From contig JAKAKI010000073.1 of assembly GCA_021813505.1 (NCBI GenBank), positions 45,851-109,850 of the forward strand: a stretch of DNA of 64,000 nucleotides. Reading direction: 5' to 3'. A program made the translations under genes and the position numbers. The stretch is from a bacterium (lineage in GTDB: Bacteria; Zixibacteria; MSB-5A5; WJJR01). Positions 7,521 through 26,848 of the stretch are shown here, in pieces; the first letter of the stretch is position 1, and every line of letters starts with the position of its first letter. Under the pieces are notes generated by a model, which worked only from the letters and a program-made list of their open reading frames with translations, made no database searches and was not told the DNA's origin.

Positions 7521-9236
7521 CTAACGAACCAGCAACATCTTGCGCGATAGGGTCTGGGCGCCTGAGGTCATGCGGGCGAAGTAGACTCCGGAAGCGAGCG
7601 GCTGACCCGACCTGTTGTCACCGTTCCACACAAGTTCATGCGTTCCGGAGTCTGCGCTACCGGAAAAGAGTGTGTTCACCATCCGACCGAGGATGTCGTA
7701 GACGGAAACGGTGACTCGCTCGCGTCCGTTGACAACGAACCGAATCACTGTTGACGGGTTGAACGGATTCGGCATGTTCGTCAGGTCGAGCGCGTATCGG
7801 ATGCTTCCCGGGGCAATGTCATCGAAGACGCCAGTGACGAGCGGAACCGTGAGATCGCACGACATCGACGCGGCAGACGCCGAGATATTGGTCACGGTGA
7901 CGTAACTCGGCGCACCGGAGTACGCGTTGGAACTGGGTGAGGTCGAGGCAGAGAAAGTCGCAGCGAGGGATGGTCCAGGGTAAGGATCGGCGGAGTCCCC
8001 CAGATTGATGTTCTTTTCCATCTGCCATAGATTGTCAGCTTGCTGCAGCGCCACCAGGTAATTTCCATTGGATGTATGGCCGGGGTACCACTCGGACATG
8101 TTCGACATGCGGCTTTCATCAATACGCCAGATGAGCAGCCCCGAGCCTGGAAGCGCGGCGTCGTAACCCAGCTTCTGCCGATTCTCCAGCAGAAAATACT
8201 CGCGTCCTCCCGTGCCCTCGATCGGCAACCGGTAAACAAAGCCCTGAGTCTCGTTGGCAGGGACAACCGCTCCTGCCACGCTGACCATGACATCGAGAGG
8301 CAGGATGATACCGAGCTGATACTTGCACCAGGCGTCGAGGTGGGCGGGTGAATTCCCCAGACGTCCGTTCCAGGCACCCGAGGCCATGAGCGACCACTTG
8401 CCCACGCCACGAGAGCTGCCGTCCAAGTCGTAGAGGTCGGGCAGACCCAACAGATGGCCGATCTCGTGGGCGAACACACCAATCGTTATGTCACCGGGAC
8501 GGTTCCAGAATTCCGGCTGGATCGTGTATGAACTGACATACACGCCGTCGCGCAGGCGGGGCATGATGCCCCACTTGTGTGACCAGATGTCATTGGTGGA
8601 GAAGGTGAATTCGGCCCCACGGCCCGTGTGCACGATGATGATTCCATCGACGAACTTGTCCCCGTCGTTGTCGTAGTCGGCGAAGTTGACGCACGAATCG
8701 ACTTTGTCCACCAGGTCCTCGCAGAGCTTTTGGGTATTGTGGGGATAGACGCCCATCCCGTAGTCCGCGTTGACATAGCTGGTGTAGCTGCTGTCGAGAT
8801 GGTGCCACCCGAGCGCGGAGGGCAAATTCACGGTGGTGATGGTGAGTGTGTGGTAGGTGATTTCATGGTAGAAGTCGCGCACCGAACCGGGATCATCGCT
8901 GAAGATCAGGGTATCGAACACGAGCGCCGGAACTGATGCCGGCTTGTCGGGGAAATCAACACAGATCGCCAGAATGTTGAAGTTGCCCACCCGTCGGATG
9001 CCGGCTGCCGGACCGCCATCGGGCTGATCGATGCCGCGTGCCGCAAACGATGCGCTCATTTGAGAGTAAAGACCGGCGCTGGCGCTAAGACCGGGTACGA
9101 TCGGATGCGAACTGTCGCCAGGGTAGGGCGGCATGGCATTGGCGTTGAAGAAGAGCCCCGACGCGCAGAGAATCAATATTCCCAGAAGACCGCCCGATCC
9201 AATGGGCAAGACACGCAAGCGATGCATTACGGGCAT
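7521..9236 (-). CDS. M6-family (immune inhibitor A-like) zinc metalloprotease with a T9SS-type C-terminal sorting domain.
   Basis: 'VFAHEIGHLLGLPDLYD' matches the HExxHxxGxxD zinc-binding motif of M6 peptidases. Signal peptide present. The C-terminus 'GVYFARMTSGAQTLSRKMLLVR' resembles a Por-secretion/FlgD-Ig tail. Confidence 0.75.
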   Translation of the reverse strand: MPVMHRLRVLPIGSGGLLGILILCASGLFFNANAMPPYPGDSSHPIVPGLSASAGLYSQMSASFAARGIDQPDGGPAAGIRRVGNFNILAICVDFPDKPASVPALVFDTLIFSDDPGSVRDFYHEITYHTLTITTVNLPSALGWHHLDSSYTSYVNADYGMGVYPHNTQKLCEDLVDKVDSCVNFADYDNDGDKFVDGIIIVHTGRGAEFTFSTNDIWSHKWGIMPRLRDGVYVSSYTIQPEFWNRPGDITIGVFAHEIGHLLGLPDLYDLDGSSRGVGKWSLMASGAWNGRLGNSPAHLDAWCKYQLGIILPLDVMVSVAGAVVPANETQGFVYRLPIEGTGGREYFLLENRQKLGYDAALPGSGLLIWRIDESRMSNMSEWYPGHTSNGNYLVALQQADNLWQMEKNINLGDSADPYPGPSLAATFSASTSPSSNAYSGAPSYVTVTNISASAASMSCDLTVPLVTGVFDDIAPGSIRYALDLTNMPNPFNPSTVIRFVVNGRERVTVSVYDILGRMVNTLFSGSADSGTHELVWNGDNRSGQPLASGVYFARMTSGAQTLSRKMLLVR

Positions 9237-13830: not shown

Positions 13831-14790
13831 ATGAGCAATCGACGGCATGCAATGTGGGTTTCAATCATCCTGACCGGAGTGGGCGTGATTTGCGGACTGG
13901 CATTGGTTTCGATGGCAACGAAACCGAAGGAGAATTCTGTGGCTCTCAACAAGCTGACGCCGGAAGAAGAAGCGGTGATCATTCACAAGGGGACGGAACG
14001 GGCCTTTACCGGCAAGTACTATGATTTCAAAGAGAAGGGCACGTACACCTGCAAGCAGTGCGGGGCACCGTTGTATCGCTCCTCCGACAAGTTCGATTCC
14101 GAATGCGGCTGGCCGAGTTTTGACGACGAGATCCCGGGGGCGGTCAAGCGGACGGTCGATGCGGATGGCATGCGCACCGAAATCACCTGCGTGCGTTGCG
14201 GCGCCCATCTGGGACACGTGTTCGAGGGGGAGCATTTCACCGCGAAGAATGTGCGGCATTGCGTGAATTCGATTTCGCTCAATTTCGTTCCGGACAGCGC
14301 GATCGTCAAAACCGAGAAGGCTTATTTCGCCGGCGGTTGCTTCTGGGGCACCGAGTACTTGCTGGAGAAGGCTGAGGGCGTGGTTTCCGCCAAAGTCGGC
14401 TATATGGGCGGACATACAACCAAGCCGACGTACCGCGACGTCTGCGAAGGGAACACGGGACATGCGGAGACGGTCGCAATCGAATTCGATCCGTCCAAGA
14501 CGACCTATGAAAAGCTGGCGCGGCTGTTTTTCGAGATCCACGACCCGACGCAGGCAGATGGCCAGGGACCGGACATCGGCGACCAATACCGTTCGGAAAT
14601 CTTCTATACCGATGACAGCCAGAAGCAAGTGGCCGAGAAACTGATTGGGATTCTGAAGAGCAAGGGCTTGGACGTTTCAACGCAGTTGGCCAAGGCCGGT
14701 CCGTTCTGGGAGGCCGAGAAGTACCACCAGAATTACTACGACCAGAACGGCCATCGGCCGTATTGCCATTCGTATCAAAAGCGGTTTTGA
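13831..14790 (+). CDS. msrAB: Bifunctional peptide-methionine sulfoxide reductase MsrB-MsrA fusion with an N-terminal membrane anchor.
   Basis: MsrB motifs 'CGWPSF' and 'RCGAHLGHVFEGE' with CxxC pairs. MsrA motif 'GGCFWGTEY' and 'GHAETV'. N-terminal TM helix. Confidence 0.9.
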   Translation: MSNRRHAMWVSIILTGVGVICGLALVSMATKPKENSVALNKLTPEEEAVIIHKGTERAFTGKYYDFKEKGTYTCKQCGAPLYRSSDKFDSECGWPSFDDEIPGAVKRTVDADGMRTEITCVRCGAHLGHVFEGEHFTAKNVRHCVNSISLNFVPDSAIVKTEKAYFAGGCFWGTEYLLEKAEGVVSAKVGYMGGHTTKPTYRDVCEGNTGHAETVAIEFDPSKTTYEKLARLFFEIHDPTQADGQGPDIGDQYRSEIFYTDDSQKQVAEKLIGILKSKGLDVSTQLAKAGPFWEAEKYHQNYYDQNGHRPYCHSYQKRF

Positions 14791-15552: not shown

Positions 15553-16785
15553 GTGGCTATGAACAGAGAAAACACGACACGAGTAAAAGGTGATCTTGCG
15601 CGAAAACTCCTTCTGATCTCGATAACTTGCGCGTCATTGTGCGCCAGTGCGAGCGCGCAAATGCCTGCAGATTCGGCTGCTCCCTCTCCCCCGCCGCGCG
15701 CCCTCATCAATCTGACCGCGAATGATTGGGGAATCGTCATCGGGAACGCCCCACGCGTCCATGGGTTGCGATTCAACCTCAGCGACCGCGGAATCGAGCA
15801 GATCGATGGATTGAATGTCACCTTCTGGAAGCCGCGTGAGACGTCACGGGGCGTGATTAATGGGGTTGCGCTCGGTTTGCTCGCACCGGCCGCCCGGCAC
15901 ATCAACGGCATTTCGCTCGGTACGATCGCGACTGTCGGCGAGTCATCCTTGCGCGGCATCAGCGCCGCTGCGATCGCCACCGTCTCGGAAGGTGTGATCC
16001 AGGGTGTCAGCGCGGCGGGAATCGCGGTTATAGGCGAACAACGTGTCACCGGAATCACAGCGGCGGGTATAGCGGTTATTTCCAACGGGAAGCTCATTGG
16101 GGTCTCGGCCTCCGGATTGGCAACAATCGGTCGGACCGGCCTTTGGGGAGTGCATGCAGCGGGGCTTGCCACGGTATCGGAAGGTGATGCGTTCGGAGTC
16201 ACGGCCAGCGGACTGGCGACGGTTTGCGAGGGCGGCCTGCATGGCATCGGCGCCGCCGGGCTGGCGATTGTCACCGAGGGCGCAGTGGACGGCGTTGCCC
16301 TGGCAGGATTGACCACAGTTTGCGATGGCACGATGACGGGCATTGCGATCGCCGGCGGCGTGATTATCACTGAACAGACAATCCGCGGGCTCGCGGTTGG
16401 GGGAATTGCACTGCCGTCACGTGTTGACGATGAGTCCAAACGGTGGTCGCTGCCTGGGATCAAGGCTCGCGAAATCCGGGGACTGGCGGTTCATGGGATG
16501 AACATTCAGGTGAGCCGGCGGGCTTCCGGAATACTGGTTTCCGGCATCCACCTTTCCGGGGATGTCCTGGCCGGAATCGGCGCGGCCCCGGTGATCAGGG
16601 CGGGAGAACTGAAGGGGATCGGAGCCGGGCTGGTGAATCTTGGGGCGCGGCGCCAGACCGGGATCATGGTGGGCCTGCTCAATAGCACGCCAGAACTTCG
16701 GGGAATCCAAGTGGGTCTATTGAATCATGCTGGGAATAATCCGAAGGGCTTCCAGTGGCTGCCGGGGATCAATTTGCACTTTTAA
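15553..16785 (+). CDS. Secreted protein built from ~12 tandem 16-residue Gly/Ala-rich repeats (G[IV]xAAG[IL]A[TV][IV]xEGxxx), ending in Phe.
   Basis: Signal peptide 'ITCASLCASASAQ'. Strict 16-aa periodicity between aa ~130 and ~330. Degenerate 'GIxVGLLN' repeats follow. C-terminal 'INLHF'. Confidence 0.6.
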   Translation: MAMNRENTTRVKGDLARKLLLISITCASLCASASAQMPADSAAPSPPPRALINLTANDWGIVIGNAPRVHGLRFNLSDRGIEQIDGLNVTFWKPRETSRGVINGVALGLLAPAARHINGISLGTIATVGESSLRGISAAAIATVSEGVIQGVSAAGIAVIGEQRVTGITAAGIAVISNGKLIGVSASGLATIGRTGLWGVHAAGLATVSEGDAFGVTASGLATVCEGGLHGIGAAGLAIVTEGAVDGVALAGLTTVCDGTMTGIAIAGGVIITEQTIRGLAVGGIALPSRVDDESKRWSLPGIKAREIRGLAVHGMNIQVSRRASGILVSGIHLSGDVLAGIGAAPVIRAGELKGIGAGLVNLGARRQTGIMVGLLNSTPELRGIQVGLLNHAGNNPKGFQWLPGINLHF

Positions 16786-16916
16786 AGGCATTCGTTAGTC
16801 GAGCTCGCTATCCTCGTGACATTGAGCACGATAGGCCCTTCGGCGAAGACGGCAATAGGCCTGCCGGCGTGGGGAATTGCCGGGGAAAATCTGGCCTAAA
16901 TCGATGATGTTTGCAA

Positions 16917-16944
16917 TTGCGGAAACCTGTCAAAAGCGTATAAT
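16917..16944 (+). promoter_or_regulatory. Putative sigma70-like promoter (TTGCGG, 16-nt spacer, TATAAT) upstream of the DUF1573 gene.
   Basis: A perfect -10 TATAAT lies at 16939-16944 in an unusually AT-rich intergenic patch. RBS 'aaggaagtgg' precedes ATG 16989. Confidence 0.35.
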
Positions 16945-16988
16945 AGCCAAGTTGTGAAGTCGACATTGACCTCAACCAAGGAAGTGGA

Positions 16989-17819
16989 ATGCGATTAAAA
17001 GAATGGTCACTGGTGGCAGCCCTTCTCGCGGGTGTCAGCGCGCCAGCATTGGGCGCAGCGGACAGCACGAAGGCGGCTCCGCCAGCAGGTGCCACGGATA
17101 CCGCGAAGGCGGCACCTATCAGGAAAGCGAAGATTGACGTACCGCAGACAACATTCAACTTTGGGTACGTGCCGCAAAATTCAAGTATCTCGCACGTGTT
17201 CTGGGTCAAAAGTGTCGGTGAGGATACACTCCGAATCACCGACGTGAGGCCTGGGTGAGGATGCACAAAGGCTCCGCTTAAGAAAAAGGAGCTTGCTGTC
17301 GGAGACAGCACTGAAATCGAAATCATCTTCTCGACGGGACATTACAGTTCACGTGTCACGAAGAGCGCCAGCATTGCGTGCAATGCACAGGGGAATCCGC
17401 CGGGGTTGTCATTCCAGGCATGGCCGATTTTCAATCAGGACTCTCTGAAGTTGTTCAAGGTCGAACCGTTCCAGATCGCACTGGATTCGACCAAGCCCGC
17501 GGAGCAGAAGAAGGGCATTGAATTCCAGGTCAACATCAAGAATGTCTCTTCCGAGCCCATGGAGTTCAGCCTGGTATCGGTTCCGACCGAGTTTGTCAAA
17601 GTTGACATGCCGGGCGGACAGATCAAGCCGGGCAAGGAAAAGTCGATCAAGGTCAAGTTTGACAAGAATATCGCCAGTGAAACCTTCACCAAGTCTTTCA
17701 CGATTGAAGCCAACGACGCGGCGAAGACCCGGATTACCGTGCCGGTCACCAAGAACCAGCGCTGGCTCGCACCTGGGGAGCAGCCTCCGGCAACGGGTGC
17801 AAATATCAAGACGAAATAA
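16989..17819 (+). CDS. DUF1573-family secreted protein with a single in-frame TGA (17256-17258) at the position of the first Cys of the paralog's CGC motif. Candidate selenoprotein; alternatively a nonsense pseudogene.
   Basis: ORFs 16989..17258 and 17406..17819 are in the same frame (both mod 3 = 0), with only one stop between them. It aligns end-to-end with paralog 18112..18870: 'DVRPG-TGA-GCTKAPLKKK' versus 'DVRPG-C-GCTKAPLKKK'. A hairpin 'aggctcc...ggagctt' downstream of the TGA is absent from the paralog. Confidence 0.55.
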
Positions 17820-17902
17820 CCATTCGCGGTTCACATTGCTCTATTCGGGCGCATTGTTTCCTGACGGTGCGCCCGTTGCGTTTGGCCCCGTTTATGAAGG
17901 GC

Positions 17903-18111: not shown

Positions 18112-18870
18112 ATGACGTACAAGATCCTCATTCTCTCGGCTGCGTTCGCGTGCGGGATGGCAGCGTCGGCGGCCGGTGCCGACTCGACCAACGCGACCGG
18201 CCCGAAGCTGGAAGTTCCGGAGACGAACTTTGACTATGGGTACACGGTCCAAAACGCGAAGATCGCGCATGTGTACTGGCTGAAGAACAGCGGGACCGAC
18301 ACGCTTAAACTCAAGGATGTGCGCCCCGGATGCGGATGCACCAAAGCTCCCCTCAAGAAAAAATCGCTGGCGCCCGGCGACAGCACTGACGTCGAGGTCG
18401 TATTCTCGACCGGATCTTACAGTATGTTTGTCCGGAAACCGTCGACCATTCAGTTGGAATCCCCCGGTGACACGCCGCCGATGCTGGCCTTTACAGCGTA
18501 TCCGACGCCAAAACCGGACTCGCTGCGGCCACTGACCTTCACTCCCATGGGCGTGAATCTGGATTCGTCCAAGAAGACCTCCAACATGCAGGCGTGGAAT
18601 TTCAGAGTTCGTGTGAAGAATTGGTCCAACCATGACCTTCGAATCCACCAGGTGTCTCCAGCGCTTTCGCAGATCAATATTGAGGCGCCCAATGGCGCTA
18701 TTGCCGCCGGTTCAGAGGCCACAGTGCGCATCAGAATCGACGCGGAATTGGCTGATTCCACTTTTGCGAAGTCGGTGACATTCGAGGTGTCGGACTCGCT
18801 CCACACGCGATACACGTTGCCGATTGGGAATGAGCCGCCCGCGACGGGCCGCACCCCGGTTGCACATTAG
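18112..18870 (+). CDS. DUF1573-family secreted protein (paralog carrying an intact CGC motif).
   Basis: Signal peptide. 'NFDYGYTVQNAKIAHVYWLKNSGTDTLKLKDVRPGCGCTKAP' aligns with the upstream copy. RBS 'ggagcaggaagg'. Confidence 0.75.
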   Translation: MTYKILILSAAFACGMAASAAGADSTNATGPKLEVPETNFDYGYTVQNAKIAHVYWLKNSGTDTLKLKDVRPGCGCTKAPLKKKSLAPGDSTDVEVVFSTGSYSMFVRKPSTIQLESPGDTPPMLAFTAYPTPKPDSLRPLTFTPMGVNLDSSKKTSNMQAWNFRVRVKNWSNHDLRIHQVSPALSQINIEAPNGAIAAGSEATVRIRIDAELADSTFAKSVTFEVSDSLHTRYTLPIGNEPPATGRTPVAH

Positions 18871-20760: not shown

Positions 20761-21903
20761 ATGCTTTACCGCAAGATGCCGGACGCCGATCCTGCCCTGT
20801 CGATTCTGGGCTTCGGATGTATGCGGCTGCCGGTGGACGGTGGCGGGCATATCGACGAGCCTGGAGCGACCGAGATGCTCCGCTGGGCAATCGACCACGG
20901 TGTCAACTACGTGGACACGGCTTATCCCTATCACAACGGCGAGAGCGAACCGTTTGTGGGCCGGGCATTGCAGGATGGTTATCGCAGCAGAGTCCAGTTG
21001 GCAACGAAACTGCCGAGCTGGCTGGTGACGACCCGCGCCGACATGGACAAATATCTCGATGAGCAATTGAAACGGCTTCAGACCGAGCAGATCGACTTCT
21101 ACCTCGTCCACTCCCTGAATCAGGCTTCTTGGGAGAATATGCAACGTCTGGGGATCGGCGAGTTCCTCGACAGTACTATCGCCGACGGACGGATTCGCTG
21201 CGCCGGATTCTCATTCCATGACCAGGCTGGTGTCTTCAAGAAGATCGTCGACGGATACGACTGGACCTTCTGCCAGATTCAGTACAACTTCATGGACGAG
21301 GATTACCAGGCCGGTACCGAGGGGCTCCGTTACGCGGCCGCACGCGGACTGGGGATCGTGATTATGGAACCATTGCGGGGCGGCGTGCTGACGCGTGAGG
21401 TCCCGGCCGTTCAGGACGTATGGAACCGTGCGGCGACGAAGCGCACACTCGCCGACTGGTCACTGCGTTGGATATGGAACCATCCCGAGGTCCATGTCGT
21501 GCTCTCCGGAATGGGCACGTTGGAGCAGGTTCGCGAGAATATCGCCTCCGCCGGCACTGCTACTCCGTCGTGTTTGTCCACGGAGGAACTGAATCTCTTT
21601 GACCTTGCCCGCGAAGAGTATCGCAAGCGAATCAAGGTGCCTTGCACCTCGTGCAATTACTGCATCCCCTGCCCATCCGGCGTGAAGATACCGACATGTT
21701 TCGAGATCTATAATCTGGCTCACATGTATGACGCGGCGGAACGCGCCAAGGGCTTGTATGAATTCATGCTGCGGGCAGGGACATCCAATGGCGCCGGGTT
21801 CGCCTCGCTGTGCGAGAAGTGTGGCGATTGCGAAGCGCTCTGCCCGCAGGGGATTCCGACACGAGAGCGGATCGGTGAGGTGGCGGCGTACTTTGGAAAA
21901 TAG
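20761..21903 (+). CDS. Aldo/keto reductase with a C-terminal 2x[4Fe-4S]-type Cys cluster domain.
   Basis: AKR TIM-barrel N-terminus. C-terminal 'CTSCNYCIPCPSG' and 'CEKCGDCEALCPQG' ferredoxin-like motifs. Confidence 0.8.
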   Translation: MLYRKMPDADPALSILGFGCMRLPVDGGGHIDEPGATEMLRWAIDHGVNYVDTAYPYHNGESEPFVGRALQDGYRSRVQLATKLPSWLVTTRADMDKYLDEQLKRLQTEQIDFYLVHSLNQASWENMQRLGIGEFLDSTIADGRIRCAGFSFHDQAGVFKKIVDGYDWTFCQIQYNFMDEDYQAGTEGLRYAAARGLGIVIMEPLRGGVLTREVPAVQDVWNRAATKRTLADWSLRWIWNHPEVHVVLSGMGTLEQVRENIASAGTATPSCLSTEELNLFDLAREEYRKRIKVPCTSCNYCIPCPSGVKIPTCFEIYNLAHMYDAAERAKGLYEFMLRAGTSNGAGFASLCEKCGDCEALCPQGIPTRERIGEVAAYFGK

Positions 21904-21925
21904 GAAGCAGGACAAAGGACCAAGG

Positions 21926-23875
21926 ATGGTAAGGGCATCGACCGTACTCGCAGTTGTATTCGCTTCGGTCCTGGCATTTGGGCCCTTGAAGGTCCTGGCG
22001 AAACCGGGTGACGTCACGCATGTCGTTTCGCATGCCAATCGCAAAGTCGTGACCGATCCCTCGAAGGGATTCAACGCCTACCGGAACTGGGCGGTATTCC
22101 CGTCCACGGCCACTCCCTATCGCAGAATCGTGCTGTCGGTGACTTATCGCTGCCCTGACAGTCTCCGATGCGGCGAGTGGGATTACATCGACGGCATCTT
22201 TTTGCGGCGCACCGGGGGGGGTGTTTCGCCGTCACGCGACATCGAACTGGCGCGCATGATCTCCCCTTACGGCAGCCGGTTCGGGCCGTCGTGGCACTTC
22301 ACCTGGCAGACGGATGTCACCGACTTCGGGTTCTTGCTGCACGATTCCGTTGAAATAGAATTCAATCACGGCGGGTACGAAAGCAACACCGACCGCGGCT
22401 GGCTGATCACGTTGGACTTTGCCCTGACTGAGGGACCTCCGGCGCTGCCGATATTGGGCATGGACACGCTCTGGAATGGTACGTTCCCGTACGGGGATAC
22501 ATCCAAACCCATCGAGCAACTGCTGCGCCCAATTCCGTTTACCGATCGATTCGAAGCCCAACGGGGGCGTTTGCGAATTGTCCAAACCGGACACGGGATG
22601 GACGACTCGGAGAATTGCGCGGAATTCTGCAGCAAGACGCGGCGCGTGCTGCTCGACGACTCAGTGCGTGAGGAACGTCAGATTTGGCGCCGCTGTGGGA
22701 CAAACCCGCTCTCCCCTCAAGCCGGCACCTGGCTCTATGACCGGGCGAACTGGTGCCCCGGCTCGATTGTCTTCCCTGACTTGGTCGATTTCGCGATCGA
22801 GCCCGGCTCGACGCACACGCTGGCCATCGCGATGCAACCGTACGCGAACACCAAGACGCCCACGGCCAACTACTGCATCCATTCTTACCTCTTCTATTGC
22901 GGCCAGCCTCGCGCCGCACACGATGTCTCGGTGCTGGACATCATCGCACCCAGTGCGAGAGAAGAATGGGGACGGTTAAACCCGATCTGTGGCGATCCCC
23001 TTATCCTCATCAGGAATAGCGGGAGTGAACCATTGACATCTGTCGAGGTACGTTACCAGATCGACGGCGGAGATCCGCAGCGGTATCACTGGAGAGGAAT
23101 TATTCCTTCGCAGCGGGACGCGGCCATCAGTCTGTTAGGCTCATGGGGGGCGATTGAAGGCCACACGTTCGAAGTCACGCTCAGTTCGCCTGACAGTGCC
23201 ATGGACGAATACCCGGCGGACAACTCAATGACGTCGATCATCGCTGCTACACCGGAGTATCCCACTCAATTCGTTCTGGCTTTCCGCACCAACAACGACT
23301 CAACCCAGAATGGCTACGAGCTGGTCGACGCCCAGGGGAATACCGTCTTGAAGCGTGACCCCAGATCGCTTCGGCCGCGAACGAATTGTCGGGACACGCT
23401 AACACTAGCACCCGGATGCTACCAGTTGATTTTCGCCGACACGGTCGGCGATGGACTCGATTTCTGGGCGAATCCCGATGGCGGCTATGGCTATGTGCGC
23501 CTGTTGGATATGCAAGATCATCTCATTCATTCCTTTAACTCCGACTTCGGCAGTGAAATCCGCCATTCGTTCCGCGTGGGACTCGATGTGCACCCCCCTG
23601 TTCCGATCGACACGTTACCGCTGGTGAACCCGTTCCCGGTTCGTAACAAGGGGATCTTTTCGGTGGAGCTCTTCCAGAACGAGCCGGGTGAAATCGCGCT
23701 AACGATCACGGATGAGAGCGGCAGGAAGACGGTATTTCGGCGGTCGTTCCCCGACATCAAGGAAGCGACAGTTCAGCTCGACATCAGCGACGTGCCGGAT
23801 GGGGTCTACTTCCTCACGGCAACGTCTGCCGGACACTCGGTGACACGGCGAATCCGCGTCAAGCACGGCGACTGA
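21926..23875 (+). CDS. Secreted hypothetical protein (649 aa) with a T9SS-type C-terminal sorting domain.
   Basis: ATG 21926 with RBS 'aaggaccaagg'. Signal peptide 'VLAVVFASVLAFGPLKVLA'. The C-terminal ~80 aa, 'GIFSVELFQNEPGEIALTITDESGRK...GVYFLTATSAGHSVTRRIRVKH', is Por_Secre_tail-like. The upstream extension overlapping the AKR gene was rejected. Confidence 0.65.
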   Translation: MVRASTVLAVVFASVLAFGPLKVLAKPGDVTHVVSHANRKVVTDPSKGFNAYRNWAVFPSTATPYRRIVLSVTYRCPDSLRCGEWDYIDGIFLRRTGGGVSPSRDIELARMISPYGSRFGPSWHFTWQTDVTDFGFLLHDSVEIEFNHGGYESNTDRGWLITLDFALTEGPPALPILGMDTLWNGTFPYGDTSKPIEQLLRPIPFTDRFEAQRGRLRIVQTGHGMDDSENCAEFCSKTRRVLLDDSVREERQIWRRCGTNPLSPQAGTWLYDRANWCPGSIVFPDLVDFAIEPGSTHTLAIAMQPYANTKTPTANYCIHSYLFYCGQPRAAHDVSVLDIIAPSAREEWGRLNPICGDPLILIRNSGSEPLTSVEVRYQIDGGDPQRYHWRGIIPSQRDAAISLLGSWGAIEGHTFEVTLSSPDSAMDEYPADNSMTSIIAATPEYPTQFVLAFRTNNDSTQNGYELVDAQGNTVLKRDPRSLRPRTNCRDTLTLAPGCYQLIFADTVGDGLDFWANPDGGYGYVRLLDMQDHLIHSFNSDFGSEIRHSFRVGLDVHPPVPIDTLPLVNPFPVRNKGIFSVELFQNEPGEIALTITDESGRKTVFRRSFPDIKEATVQLDISDVPDGVYFLTATSAGHSVTRRIRVKHGD

Positions 23876-24694: not shown

Positions 24695-25717
24695 ATGATC
24701 AACATCGACGGTTTATTGGGTGAGGGTGGCGGGCAGATTCTCCGCACGGCCCTCGCGCTGTCGTTGGTCACGGGACGGGAGTTCCAAATTCAGAGGATTC
24801 GGGCAGGACGGCGGAAGCCCGGCCTGCTGCATCAGCATCTGGCGGCGGTCAAAGCCGCCGTCCGGATCGGTGCGGCCGAAACACACGGTGCCGAACTCGG
24901 CTCACCCGAATTGTACTTCGCCCCTCAGGCAATCAATCCCGGCCAGTATCGATTCGACGTCGGCACCGCTGGAAGCTGCACGCTGGTCCTGCAAACGGTG
25001 CTCCCGGCCCTCCTCACCGCCAGCGGTGCTTCCGAGATTATTGTTGAAGGAGGGACCCACAATCCGGCGGCACCACCGTTTGATTTCCTCAACAGGTGCT
25101 TTCTCCCGATCTTGAATCGCATGGGTCCTATGGTCAATGCCCGGATGGAGCGTCCCGGATTCTATCCGGCTGGTGGCGGTAGAATCGTCGTTGCGATCGA
25201 GCCCTCCCCGGCGCTATCACGGATCGAATTGATGGATCGTGGCGCAATCAAGACTCAAAGCGCGCGGGCGATGGTCGCCCAACTGCCTCGTGAGATTGCC
25301 GAACGCGAACTGCGCACACTGGGCAGCCAACTGCGCTGGGGGGCGGAATCGCTTCACGCTGAGATCATCGAGAACTCGTTCGGGCCGGGAAACGCCATTG
25401 TCATCGAGATCGGAAGCGAACACATCACGGAGGTCATCACCGGATTTGGGCGGCGCGGGGTCCGCGGCGAGCAGGTCGCGAGTGAGACGGTAGAGGAGGT
25501 AACACGCTATCTGGCCGCCAATGTTCCAGTGGGCCGGCATCTGGCCGATCAACTCCTGATTCCCATGGCGTTGGCCGGTGGCGGGAAGTTCCGGACCCTC
25601 TCCCCCACTCAACACACACAGACCAATATCAGTGTCCTCAAGCAGTTTCTCGAGGTTGATGTTGACGTTTCGGAATCTGCCAGCGATGATTGGACGATTG
25701 GGGTCAGCACAACTTGA
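24695..25717 (+). CDS. rtcA: RNA 3'-terminal phosphate cyclase.
   Basis: N-terminal 'IDGLLGEGGGQILRTALALSLVTGR' is the RtcA signature. 340 aa. Confidence 0.85.
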   Translation: MINIDGLLGEGGGQILRTALALSLVTGREFQIQRIRAGRRKPGLLHQHLAAVKAAVRIGAAETHGAELGSPELYFAPQAINPGQYRFDVGTAGSCTLVLQTVLPALLTASGASEIIVEGGTHNPAAPPFDFLNRCFLPILNRMGPMVNARMERPGFYPAGGGRIVVAIEPSPALSRIELMDRGAIKTQSARAMVAQLPREIAERELRTLGSQLRWGAESLHAEIIENSFGPGNAIVIEIGSEHITEVITGFGRRGVRGEQVASETVEEVTRYLAANVPVGRHLADQLLIPMALAGGGKFRTLSPTQHTQTNISVLKQFLEVDVDVSESASDDWTIGVSTT

Positions 25718-25759
25718 TTGGACGAAGTGGACGAAGAGGACAAAGTGGACCAAGTGGAC

Positions 25760-26848
25760 ATGAAGCGTGGGACGAATCAACTGCTGGATGAGGTGGTCAT
25801 TCGCGGCGTGCGTTTGCGGAATCGCATTGCGGTTTCGCCAATGTGCCAGTACAGCGCTGCCGACGGGATGGCCAATGACTGGCACTTGGTGCATCTTGGC
25901 AGCCGCGCAGCCGGCGGGGCCGGCTTGGTGATTGTGGAGGCGACGGCGGTGACGCCGACCGGGCGAATCACGCCGGGCGATCTGGGGCTGTGGAGTGATG
26001 ACCAGATCGAGCCGTTGGCACGAATCGCGCGGTTCATTGAGAGCATGGGTGCCGTCCCGGGAATTCAGATTGCGCACGCCGGGCGCAAAGCGAGTTGCCG
26101 GCCCCCATGGGAAGGAGGGAACGCGATACGAAGCGCCACCGAAGGCGGCTGGCCGGTCGTGAGCGCCAGCGCGATCCCGTTTCACGCCGACGGATTGGTG
26201 CCGCAATCGCTCAGCGAGTCCGAAGTCCACGATGTGATCTCTGCCTTCGGGGAGGCTGCCAGGAGATCATCGCAGGCCGGTTACAACGTGATCGAACTGC
26301 ACGCCGCCCACGGATATCTCATCGATCAGTTCCTCTCCCCGCTGAGTAACAAGCGCACCGACTCGTACGGAGGAAGCCTGGCGAATCGGATGCGATTCCT
26401 GCTTGAGACCGTCCATGCGGTGCGTGCCGTGATTCCGAAAGAGACGGCCCTGTTCACCCGGATCTCGGCCACCGACTGGGTGGATGGCGGATGGACCATC
26501 GATGATTCCGTCGTGCTCGGAACGGCACTCCGTGAAGCGGGCGTGGATCTGATCGACACGTCGAGCGGGGGCGTGATTCCCAATGTGAAGATTCCTGCGG
26601 GATTGAACTATCAAGTCGGACTGGCCAGCGAGATCCGCAGCCGCGCCGGAATCATGACGGGTGCTGTTGGCGTGATTGTGGAGCCCGGACAGGCGAATGA
26701 GATCATATCGTCCGGCGCGGCCGATATTGTGCTGATCGGACGTGAGATGCTGCGGGAGCCGTATTGGCCTCTCAAGGCCCAGACAGCCCTTGGGCAGGAA
26801 CCCGCCTGGCCAAGGCAATACGGATACGCCGTCCGCCGCAAGAAGTAA
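25760..26848 (+). CDS. namA: NADH:flavin oxidoreductase, Old Yellow Enzyme family (YqjM/NamA-like).
   Basis: 'AVSPMCQYSA', 'HAAHGYL' and 'RTDSYGGSLANR' OYE motifs. Upstream in-frame 9-bp repeats could extend the N-terminus to 25718. Confidence 0.85.
   Translation: MKRGTNQLLDEVVIRGVRLRNRIAVSPMCQYSAADGMANDWHLVHLGSRAAGGAGLVIVEATAVTPTGRITPGDLGLWSDDQIEPLARIARFIESMGAVPGIQIAHAGRKASCRPPWEGGNAIRSATEGGWPVVSASAIPFHADGLVPQSLSESEVHDVISAFGEAARRSSQAGYNVIELHAAHGYLIDQFLSPLSNKRTDSYGGSLANRMRFLLETVHAVRAVIPKETALFTRISATDWVDGGWTIDDSVVLGTALREAGVDLIDTSSGGVIPNVKIPAGLNYQVGLASEIRSRAGIMTGAVGVIVEPGQANEIISSGAADIVLIGREMLREPYWPLKAQTALGQEPAWPRQYGYAVRRKK

What the first reader, a model, noticed from the sequence alone, without database searches (positions are those of the whole stretch)
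16989..17819. Candidate selenoprotein: a DUF1573 gene with one in-frame TGA aligned to Cys of the paralog's CGC motif
ORFs 16989..17258 and 17406..17819 share one reading frame and are separated only by the TGA at 17256-17258. Translating through it gives a 276-aa protein that aligns over its whole length with the intact tandem paralog at 18112..18870. In the local alignment 'DVRPG-[TGA]-GCTKAPLKKK' versus 'DVRPG-C-GCTKAPLKKK', the TGA falls exactly where the paralog's first Cys of the CGC motif stands. A UGA replacing a Cys of a Cys-Gly-Cys dithiol motif is the classical signature of a selenocysteine codon. Immediately downstream, copy 1 has complementary segments ('aaggctcc' ... 'ggagctt', then 'gctgtcggagacagc') that could fold into a bacterial SECIS-like hairpin. 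The paralog has 'aaagctcccc...atcgctgg' at the same place and lacks the complementarity. Coding periodicity and conservation continue after the TGA, which argues against a dead gene.
Basis: partly seen in the sequence, partly recalled or inferred. Interest (0 to 1): 0.88.

Follow-up and report, generated by a model that had tools for sequence, protein, structure and literature searches.

The report
Selenocysteine-coding DUF1573 gene, known family
The apparent stop codon inside this gene almost certainly encodes selenocysteine in a secreted protein of unknown function, which is a real but unsurprising find because DUF1573 proteins with a Sec-Gly-Cys motif were already described in 2007.

Summary
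Window 16989..17819 is one 276-codon frame with a single TGA (17256-17258). It encodes a signal peptide plus two Ig-like domains, and the first is DUF1573 (Pfam E=5e-30). The TGA aligns with the first Cys of PG-C-GC in the tandem paralog 18112..18870.

- **Not an error:** three independent assemblies carry the same TGA.
- **Conserved:** about 45 homologous gene copies from other genomes and metagenomes, at 35-93% protein identity, carry TGA at exactly this column. Another 21 carry TGC or TGT.
- **Still coding:** dN/dS after the TGA is 0.10-0.19.
- **Normal genetic code:** TGA ends 18 of 32 long genes in the window.
- **RNA signal:** two adjacent hairpins follow the TGA, at 17269-17294 and 17295-17309. 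The first has one covarying pair. The second (GCUGUC-GGN-GACAGC) is frozen at synonymous sites in Sec forms only.

Neither hairpin alone fits the published bacterial SECIS model. selA, selB, selC and selD could not be checked in the rest of the genome.

DUF1573 selenoproteins with a UGC motif (OS_HP2) are already published. This clade scores below the NCBIfam cut-off and is deposited in GenBank as fragments, so it is a new member of a known kind. Its biochemical function is unknown.

The parts
16989..17819 (+). Complete selenoprotein gene of 276 codons, with Sec at codon 90. It has an SD-like AAGGAAG 5-11 nt upstream of the ATG.
   Evidence: Single in-frame TGA. Alignment with the paralog at E=1e-70. 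Orthologs at 93-35% identity keep the same architecture. AlphaFold model has mean pLDDT 86.8 and pTM 0.78.
16989..17060 (+). Predicted N-terminal signal peptide (MRLKEWSLVAALLAGVSAPALG|AADS), followed by a low-complexity linker to about residue 47.
   Evidence: Inferred from the sequence: a basic n-region, a hydrophobic core and an A-x-G/A site. The model shows a helix at residues 6-13, then pLDDT 52-63 up to about residue 40. All homologs start with a similar hydrophobic segment.
17139..17417 (+). DUF1573 / ASH-type Ig-like domain 1 (residues 51-143), which carries the U90-G-C92 motif.
   Evidence: Pfam PF07610 E=5e-30; PF22544 E=5.6e-20. NCBIfam NF041425 OS_HP2 (seleno)protein scores 75.8 bits, below its cut-off of 100.
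17256..17258 (+). UGA codon read as selenocysteine (U90).
   Evidence: Aligns with Cys of the CGC motif in 21 locus copies and in 65 of 66 aligned database homologs. TGA sits at the same column in 43+2 locus copies plus L055-57. The TGA is identical in 3 assemblies.
17269..17294 (+). SECIS hairpin 1: a 7-bp stem (17269-17275 with 17288-17294) and a 12-nt loop GCUUAAGAAAAA. The loop starts 17 nt after the UGA.
   Evidence: -10.1 kcal/mol. 92% of cells are paired across 38 distinct sequences. The pair at columns 18/35 covaries (U:A 28, A:U 5, G:U 3). In distant members the stem is kept in a shifted register. Mean energy is -10.5 in Sec forms against -4.9 in Cys forms.
17295..17309 (+). SECIS hairpin 2: GCUGUC-GGA-GACAGC, a 6-bp stem (7 bp if U17294-A17310 is counted) with a 3-nt GGN loop. 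It abuts hairpin 1 directly, and its loop starts 42 nt after the UGA.
   Evidence: The exact motif GCTGTCGGNGACAGC occurs once in nearly every Sec copy, and wherever it occurs it lies 39 nt after the T of TGA. The exceptions are L047 and L050/L052, which carry one substitution. Only one Cys copy has it. Third-codon-position entropy is 0, 0.18, 0 and 0 bits in the stem codons and 1.34 bits in the loop codon of Sec forms. In Cys forms it is 1.4-1.9 bits throughout.
17454..17741 (+). Second Ig-like domain (residues 156-251).
   Evidence: Pfam Cep192_D6 E=5.6e-07, below cut-off. Beta strands at residues 156-255 with pLDDT above 90. Foldseek matches tandem ASH domains.
17846..17875 (+). Terminator-like hairpin (13-bp stem plus a T-rich tail), 27 nt after the stop codon.
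   Evidence: This is a consensus scan only, so function is inferred.
18112..18870 (+). Tandem Cys paralog (252 aa, CGC at 18331-18339). It belongs to a Cys-only clade that lies next to the Sec gene in many genomes.
   Evidence: The same Sec-then-Cys tandem is seen in L005, L006, L007, L009, L018, L020, L022, L023, L041 and L042. The clade structure is shown.

Best explanation
Window 16989-17819 is an intact gene for an exported selenoprotein. The ribosome reads UGA at 17256-17258 as selenocysteine. I infer that a SelB-Sec-tRNA(Sec) complex is recruited by the RNA structure immediately downstream, which consists of two directly abutting hairpins (17269-17294 and 17295-17309) inside the coding sequence.

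The product has a signal peptide, a linker and two ASH/PapD-like Ig domains. The loop after beta-strand 81-88 of the first (DUF1573) domain carries a Sec-Gly-Cys centre. This is the Sec version of the family's near-invariant Cys-Gly-Cys.

My best guess for its chemistry is a reversible selenylsulfide / thiol-selenol redox centre, or a soft-metal-binding centre, acting outside the cytoplasm. That step is inference only.

The downstream paralog is a member of an old, separate clade that has Cys at this position.
For: **Shown**
- One frame with a single TGA, and homology across it.
- The TGA is identical in 3 assemblies.
- All 11 genome loci (Zixibacteria MAGs, plus MAGs labelled Ignavibacteria and Acidobacteriota) have TGA at the same column. 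So do 32+2 copies in metagenome loci, giving 38 distinct 66-nt segments.
- 21 copies have TGC or TGT instead.
- Purifying selection acts after the TGA, with dN/dS 0.10-0.19.
- Synonymous divergence is depressed just after the TGA: pS 0.059 against 0.244 upstream for L005.
- Hairpin 2 is frozen at synonymous sites only in Sec forms, while its loop codon varies freely.
- Hairpin 1 has one compensatory pair.
- Both hairpins are much more stable in Sec forms than in Cys forms.
- TGA is the normal and commonest stop in the window, ending 18 of 32 long genes.
- The family is a published selenoprotein family with the same UGC motif, and the protein's best NCBIfam hit is OS_HP2 (seleno)protein.
- The model is confident and shows tandem Ig-like folds.

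**Inferred**
- SelB binding, which hairpin it binds, export, and the redox or metal role.
Against: - No selA, selB, selD or tRNA-Sec was found, but only 64 kb of the genome and about 200 kb of related loci could be searched.
- Neither hairpin alone satisfies the published bSECIS model (PMC13188914, Fig. 2). Hairpin 1 has a 12-nt loop where 3-9 is allowed. The loop of hairpin 2 lies 42 nt from the UGA where 16-37 is allowed.
- On the single sequence the fold z-score is only -1.5.
- Covariation is limited to one pair, and hairpin 2 is invariant. Its support is therefore synonymous-site conservation, not compensatory change.
- There is no experimental evidence for Se incorporation. The function of DUF1573 is unknown: only 4 papers in the library mention it, and no solved structure is detectable by sequence.
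Confidence: 0.88

Rival explanations
1. The gene is dead or split. TGA is a true stop, so the gene is a pseudogene, or it yields an 89-aa N-terminal fragment and a separately initiated C-terminal protein. Public gene callers annotate it this way.
For: Public gene calls give 89-aa plus 122/137-aa pieces. GenBank holds MBI5868703.1 (137 aa) and MBD3298061.1 (171 aa) as stand-alone proteins.
Against: The DUF1573 beta-sandwich (residues 51-143) spans the TGA. About 45 copies down to 35% identity keep the same TGA and an open frame with dN/dS 0.1-0.19 downstream. The start codons that gene callers chose for the C-terminal piece differ between orthologs (M/L/V at different residues), so no internal start is conserved.
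Confidence: 0.02
2. The TGA is a sequencing or assembly error for TGC.
For: It would take only a single-base difference, and the paralog has TGC.
Against: The TGA is the same, with no mismatches across the gene, in three assemblies. P0039-type fragments recur on contigs in 48 blocks of the collection. Every one of 11 species-representative genomes has TGA.
Confidence: 0.01
3. UGA is read through without selenium. This could be by near-cognate Trp or Cys tRNA, or by a reassigned code. The conserved hairpins would then act as a read-through stimulator rather than a SelB-binding SECIS.
For: The Sec machinery is not demonstrated for this genome. The RNA element departs from the bSECIS consensus in loop size or spacing. 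One ENA gene call translated the codon as Trp (P0049).
Against: TGA terminates 18 of 32 long genes in the window, so the code is not reassigned. The codon sits exactly on the first Cys of a CxC motif, which is the classical Sec/Cys pair. The same motif in the same Pfam domain is an accepted selenoprotein family. The GGN loop of hairpin 2 matches the 'G then G or U at the start of a small apical loop' rule. Cys replacements nested within Sec clades show that Cys, not Trp, is the functional equivalent.
Confidence: 0.06
4. The gene is a real selenoprotein, but only one hairpin is the SECIS. One version: hairpin 1, at canonical spacing, is the SelB site, and hairpin 2 is a helper or pausing element. 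The other version: hairpin 2 (GGN triloop) is the SelB site, and hairpin 1 is a compact spacer that brings it into range.
For: Hairpin 1 has spacing of 17 nt, G as the first loop base and -10.1 kcal/mol. Hairpin 2 is by far the more conserved and has a consensus-like loop. The two helices abut with no unpaired base between them, which would allow coaxial stacking.
Against: Sequence analysis cannot separate the two versions. Both hairpins are specific to Sec forms.
Confidence: 0.5

Closest known systems
OS_HP2 / 'DUF1573 domain-containing protein' selenoprotein family (Zhang & Gladyshev 2007, PMC1976440; tables of PMC9312934 and PMC13188914; NCBIfam NF041425)
   Same: It has the same Pfam domain (PF07610) and the same U-G-C motif in place of the family's C-G-C. 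A stem-loop follows the UGA. The protein's best NCBIfam hit is this model (E=2.5e-21).
   Different: It scores 75.8 bits against the curated cut-off of 100. Seven other Sec members of this clade score 64-80 bits, so NCBI's rule does not capture the clade and GenBank holds it as fragments. The proteins here are about 250-280 aa with two Ig-like domains. They come from Zixibacteria-type MAGs rather than deltaproteobacterial worm symbionts. In 2007 no Cys homologs were recorded for OS_HP2, whereas here Cys forms are abundant and often adjacent. I could not obtain OS_HP2 sequences to compare architecture or SECIS directly.
Consensus bacterial SECIS (bSECISearch model, as summarised in PMC13188914 Fig. 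2)
   Same: It is a stem-loop inside the coding sequence just 3' of the UGA, with G at the first loop position, a 6-7 bp stem and MFE below -7.5 kcal/mol.
   Different: There are two abutting hairpins rather than one. The hairpin at canonical spacing has a 12-nt loop (model 3-9). The invariant hairpin with the GGN loop lies 42 nt from the UGA (model 16-37).
ASH / PapD-like Ig domains (HYDIN, CFAP65, CEP192 SPD-2; P. gingivalis 2QSV)
   Same: It has a tandem beta-sandwich fold. Foldseek E-values run from 3e-12 to 1e-8 against ciliary central-apparatus ASH proteins, 2QSV and the CEP192 SPD-2 domain. Pfam PF22544 also hits.
   Different: TM-scores are only about 0.3 because the relative orientation of the two domains differs. 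None of these proteins is known to carry a CxC or UxC centre. This is a similarity of fold and says nothing about function.
Sec-to-Cys conversions with remnant SECIS (Zhang et al. 2006, PMC1794560 Fig. 4)
   Same: The Cys copy L011_3002 sits inside a Sec clade and still carries both hairpins.
   Different: That copy is in a related locus, not in the window. The window's own Cys paralog belongs to an old Cys-only clade with no remnant structure.

Membership tests
Bacterial selenoprotein gene (UGA recoded as Sec) | In-frame UGA aligned with Cys in homologs (a Sec/Cys pair). | tested here: met
   There are 21 TGC/TGT copies against 43+ TGA copies at the same column. 65 of 66 aligned database homologs have Cys there.
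Bacterial selenoprotein gene (UGA recoded as Sec) | Coding sequence conserved and under purifying selection on both sides of the UGA in several species. | tested here: met
   dN/dS is 0.05-0.11 upstream and 0.10-0.19 downstream against six orthologs. The reading frames of 11 species representatives are intact.
Bacterial selenoprotein gene (UGA recoded as Sec) | bSECIS as in the published model: apical loop of 3-9 nt, stem of 4-16 bp, G in the first two loop positions, 16-37 nt between UGA and loop, and MFE of -7.5 kcal/mol or lower (PMC13188914). | tested here: inconclusive
   Hairpin 1 has a 7-bp stem, G first in the loop, 17-nt spacing and -10.1 kcal/mol, but its loop is 12 nt. Hairpin 2 has a 6-7 bp stem, a GGA loop and -8.9 kcal/mol, but its spacing is 42 nt. 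Both are conserved and specific to Sec forms.
Bacterial selenoprotein gene (UGA recoded as Sec) | selA, selB, selC (tRNA-Sec) and selD present in the same genome. | not testable with these tools
   The window holds no tRNA. tblastn with E. coli SelA, SelB and SelD gave no hit in the window plus loci, 264 kb in all. Pfam scans of the window's proteins found none.
Bacterial selenoprotein gene (UGA recoded as Sec) | Selenium demonstrably incorporated at the UGA position. | not testable with these tools
   This needs 75Se labelling or mass spectrometry.
Standard genetic code in this organism (UGA normally a stop) | TGA terminates ordinary genes. | tested here: met
   18 of 32 long ORFs in the window end in TGA.
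DUF1573 selenoprotein (UGC motif) as listed in PMC9312934 and PMC13188914 | Pfam PF07610 domain above the gathering score. | tested here: met
   103.8 bits against a cut-off of 26.1.
DUF1573 selenoprotein (UGC motif) as listed in PMC9312934 and PMC13188914 | Sec in a U-G-C motif. | tested here: met
   The sequence reads PG-U-G-C-TKAPL.
NCBIfam NF041425 OS_HP2 family (seleno)protein | Score at or above the curated cut-off of 100 bits. | tested here: not met
   The window protein scores 75.8 bits, and seven other Sec members score 64-80 bits. It is a relative outside the curated subfamily.
ASH / PapD-like Ig fold | Beta-sandwich fold that matches known ASH domains. | tested here: met
   The model has pLDDT 86.8. 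Foldseek gives probability 1.0 and E-values down to 3e-12.

The most novel reading that the evidence does not exclude
This clade may use a distinct class of bacterial SECIS. It would be a coaxially stacked tandem hairpin whose invariant SelB-type GGN triloop lies outside the canonical 16-37 nt window. In addition, the conserved Sec-gene / Cys-gene tandem could be a functional pair, either a heterodimer or a backup that does not depend on selenium.
Probability: 0.25. Interest if true: 0.5.

Novelty: new member of a known kind. Interest (0 to 1): 0.3.

Why it matters
**Annotation.** The gene and dozens of orthologs are deposited as truncated 'DUF1573' or 'hypothetical' fragments (e.g. MBI5868703.1, MBD3298061.1). 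In some gene calls a spurious antisense ORF fills the gap. The curated NCBIfam selenoprotein model misses the whole clade, so widening that model would fix many records.

**Taxonomic reach.** The result implies that Zixibacteria-type organisms decode Sec. I found no paper in the library that reports this.

**A clean data set.** The Sec/Cys set (38 distinct Sec against 20 distinct Cys sequences, often side by side in one genome) shows clearly how an RNA signal constrains synonymous sites. It also offers a candidate non-canonical SECIS geometry.

None of this changes the general picture of bacterial selenoproteins, and the protein's function stays unknown.

Tried and rejected
- **Rfam:** nothing at gathering scores for the whole window. 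Only chance-level hits for 17200-17400 at E up to 10.
- **RNAalifold on the 38 sequences:** it recovered hairpin 2 but preferred a small alternative pairing (columns 4-20) over hairpin 1, and it reported no covariation. The named-structure count was more informative.
- **Longer RNA contexts (up to +111 nt):** no conserved outer stem appeared. The multibranch MFE fold of the single sequence is therefore not supported.
- **PDB by sequence:** no relative found.
- **Sec machinery:** tblastn with E. coli SelA, SelB and SelD, plus tRNA scans over the window and all loci, found nothing. This is uninformative given how little of the genome is held.
- **Literature on Sec use in Zixibacteria:** nothing relevant.
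- **Gene neighbourhood as a clue to function:** only close relatives (L005, L006) share synteny. Other lineages place the DUF1573 array next to unrelated genes, including a LexA/Y-family polymerase and ABC/MacB transporters. There is no conserved redox partner.
- **Other in-frame TGA candidates in the window:** a GC3-based scan gave only adjacent-gene cases. One example is the RtcA stop at 25715 followed by an OYE-like ORF.

Full report

Yes. Window 16989-17819 translates as 276 codons with one internal stop, the TGA at 17256-17258.

With Cys at the TGA, the product aligns end to end with the paralog 18112..18870 at 41% identity, E=1e-70. The TGA falls on the first Cys of PG-C-GC-TKAPLKKK. Both proteins are DUF1573 (PF07610, 103.8 and 80.3 bits). 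In copy 1 the domain (residues 51-143) spans the TGA.

- Hairpin 1 pairs 17269-17275 with 17288-17294.
- Hairpin 2 pairs 17295-17300 with 17304-17309.

Taken alone, this fold is not unusual (z = -1.5).

**2. Error, pseudogene or recoding?**

The paralog's exact protein (P0037) led to the same contig in three independent assemblies: two NCBI MAGs and one ENA assembly. All three have TGA and show no mismatches over the gene.

A scan of one genome per species returned 11 loci at 50-93% protein identity. They are mostly Zixibacteria MAGs, plus MAGs labelled Ignavibacteria and Acidobacteriota. Every one has TGA at this column, with intact conserved sequence on both sides.

A metagenome scan added 39 loci. 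Counting all copies of the P-G-x-G-C-T motif gives 43 TGA, 19 TGC and 2 TGT. Two more TGA copies with a T-G-U-G-C variant turned up through the hairpin motif. The search peptides came from an alignment rich in Sec forms, so the Sec:Cys ratio is biased.

In the first protein search, 14 clusters of 166-173 aa start just after this position. These are C-terminal pieces left by gene callers that stopped at the TGA (confirmed for P0039 and P0044). One ENA call even shows Trp there.

dN/dS downstream of the TGA is 0.10-0.19 against six orthologs, similar to the upstream values of 0.05-0.11.

TGA is the commonest stop in the window, ending 18 of 32 long genes, so the genetic code is standard.

Sequencing error, pseudogene and code reassignment are therefore excluded for practical purposes.

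**3. The RNA signal**

I compared 38 distinct Sec segments with 20 distinct Cys segments, taking 66 nt from the TGA or TGC in each.

*Hairpin 2*
- GCUGUC-GGN-GACAGC encodes Ala-Val-Gly-Asp-Ser.
- In Sec forms the third-codon-position entropy is 0, 0.18, 0 and 0 bits for the four stem codons, but 1.34 bits for the Gly codon whose third base lies in the loop.
- In Cys forms all five codons show 1.4-1.9 bits, and the residues themselves vary (A-P-G-D-S and others).
- The exact 15-mer occurs once in nearly every Sec gene, and wherever it occurs it lies 39 nt after the T of TGA. The exceptions are L047 and L050/L052, which have one substitution.
- Only one Cys gene carries it.

*Hairpin 1*
- 92% of cells are paired across the 38 sequences.
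- One pair changes on both sides: U:A in 28 sequences, A:U in 5 and G:U in 3. A synonymous Ala codon change is coupled to a Glu-to-Val replacement.
- The observed covariation score exceeded all 500 shuffles and all slid registers.
- In the most distant members the stem is rebuilt in a shifted register.

*Stability.* Mean folding energies in Sec and Cys forms are -10.5 against -4.9 kcal/mol for hairpin 1, and -8.5 against -2.4 for hairpin 2.

*Synonymous divergence.* It is also depressed just after the TGA: pS 0.059 against 0.244 upstream for the closest relative.

*Fit to the published bSECIS model.* The model requires a loop of 3-9 nt, a stem of 4-16 bp, G in the first two loop positions, 16-37 nt of spacing and MFE of -7.5 or lower (PMC13188914).
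- Hairpin 1 fails only on loop length (12 nt).
- Hairpin 2 fails only on spacing (42 nt).

The two helices abut with no unpaired base between them. A stacked tandem element is therefore a reasonable reading, but which hairpin binds SelB is not settled. The same review notes that some known selenoprotein genes do not fit the model.

**4. The protein**

The N-terminus looks like a Sec-type signal peptide, which is an inference from the sequence.

AlphaFold2 with a 66-sequence alignment gives a confident model (pLDDT 86.8, pTM 0.78). It has two beta-sandwich domains, and U90 sits just after strand 81-88.

Foldseek finds ASH/PapD-like Ig domains: HYDIN and CFAP proteins of the ciliary central apparatus, P. 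gingivalis 2QSV, and CEP192 SPD-2. This is a scaffold fold with no enzymatic precedent.

Positions nearly invariant across the family include F56, F58, G59, Q63, H69, W72, P88-G-C-G-C-T-K-A-P96, G105-D-S107 and E111.

I commit, at low confidence, to an extracytoplasmic U-x-C redox centre (a selenylsulfide) or a soft-metal-binding centre. Nothing here tests that.

The neighbourhood gives no partner. Only close relatives share the order repeat protein, Sec gene, Cys gene, histidine ammonia-lyase. Another lineage has a Cys-Sec-Cys array beside unrelated genes.

**5. Evolution**

In a neighbour-joining tree, Sec forms occupy all major clades. Four Cys forms are nested among them: L011_3002, L013_2285, L024_562 and L041_2657. 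L011_3002 still carries both hairpins.

The window's downstream paralog belongs to a separate Cys-only clade that lies next to the Sec gene in many genomes.

This pattern fits an ancestral Sec with repeated Sec-to-Cys replacement, plus an old duplication. The tree is a quick distance tree without support values.

**6. Comparison with what is known**

Two reviews list DUF1573 domain-containing selenoproteins with a UGC motif. They trace the family to OS_HP2 from the Olavius symbiont metagenome (Zhang & Gladyshev 2007).

NCBIfam has a model for it, NF041425. The window protein's best hit is that model, but at 75.8 bits against a cut-off of 100. Seven other Sec members of this clade score 64-80 bits.

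The gene is thus a DUF1573/UGC selenoprotein by the reviews' criteria, but it lies outside the curated OS_HP2 subfamily. That explains why GenBank holds only fragments such as MBI5868703.1 and MBD3298061.1.

**7. What could not be done**

The Sec machinery test is the one important gap. There are no sel genes and no tRNA in the window or in the 264 kb held in total. The rest of the genome was out of reach. I found no paper in the library on Sec use in Zixibacteria.

**8. Verdict**

- The selenoprotein interpretation is supported, with confidence about 0.88 that UGA-90 is decoded as Sec.
- It is a new member, and a mis-annotated clade, of an already known selenoprotein kind.
- The slightly non-canonical tandem-hairpin SECIS and the conserved Sec/Cys gene pair are the only parts with some novelty.
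- Interest is 0.3.

Noticed in passing
window 16808..17326 (-): A 172-aa antisense ORF overlaps the N-terminal half of the selenoprotein gene. Public gene calls of the same contig list it as a gene (L001/L002 1697..2215, no Pfam hit). It is probably a spurious call that fills the gap left by splitting the gene at the TGA.
   Followed up: partly
L011 2006 (TGA copy) and 3002 (TGC copy): These two tandem copies are nearly identical. The Cys copy keeps both hairpins, including the exact GCTGTCGGTGACAGC motif. This is a remnant SECIS after a recent Sec-to-Cys change or a gene conversion.
   Followed up: partly
window 17379-17381 (Cys131, motif I-A-C-N): 25 of 43 Sec copies have an extra Cys about 41 residues after the Sec. 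None of the 65 full-length Cys-form database homologs has one. Among the locus Cys copies only L011_3002 and L031_2504 do. It may be a partner cysteine for the Sec, but distant Sec clades lack it.
   Followed up: partly
L055 6903-9450; L056 and L057, same layout: In an abundant lineage (contigs up to 3.3 Mb) the locus is a three-gene array of DUF1573 paralogs in the order Cys, Sec, Cys. It sits next to LexA and Y-family polymerase genes, and to ABC/MacB transporters and GWxTD proteins.
   Followed up: no
P0049 (ENA contig of 1132 nt): A public protein has Trp at the Sec column (PGWGCTQAPL...LAV). The gene caller evidently applied a UGA=Trp code to this short contig.
   Followed up: no
window 13831..14790 (+): A bifunctional MsrB-MsrA methionine sulfoxide reductase (NF004042, 452 bits) with an N-terminal hydrophobic segment lies about 2.2 kb upstream of the selenoprotein gene, three genes away. 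Synteny is kept only in the closest relative, L005.
   Followed up: partly
window 15553..16785 (+): A 410-aa protein made of G-I/V-x-x-x-G-type repeats has only weak hits to the LA_2272 and VC2662 surface-repeat families. It lies immediately upstream of the Sec gene, and this position is conserved in L005 and L006.
   Followed up: no
window 25715-25717 and 25718..26848 (+): The TGA stop of RtcA is followed in the same frame by an open 376-codon ORF that looks like an Old Yellow Enzyme-type flavin oxidoreductase. This is two adjacent genes, not recoding.
   Followed up: partly
window 7521..9236 (-) and 21728..23875 (+): Two proteins carry T9SS (Por) C-terminal sorting domains. One is an M6 peptidase and the other is a 715-aa protein of unknown function. 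This fits an FCB-group organism such as Zixibacteria.
   Followed up: no
window 17846-17875 (+): A strong terminator-like hairpin (13 bp) lies between the Sec gene and the Cys paralog. It suggests that the two genes are transcribed separately.
   Followed up: no
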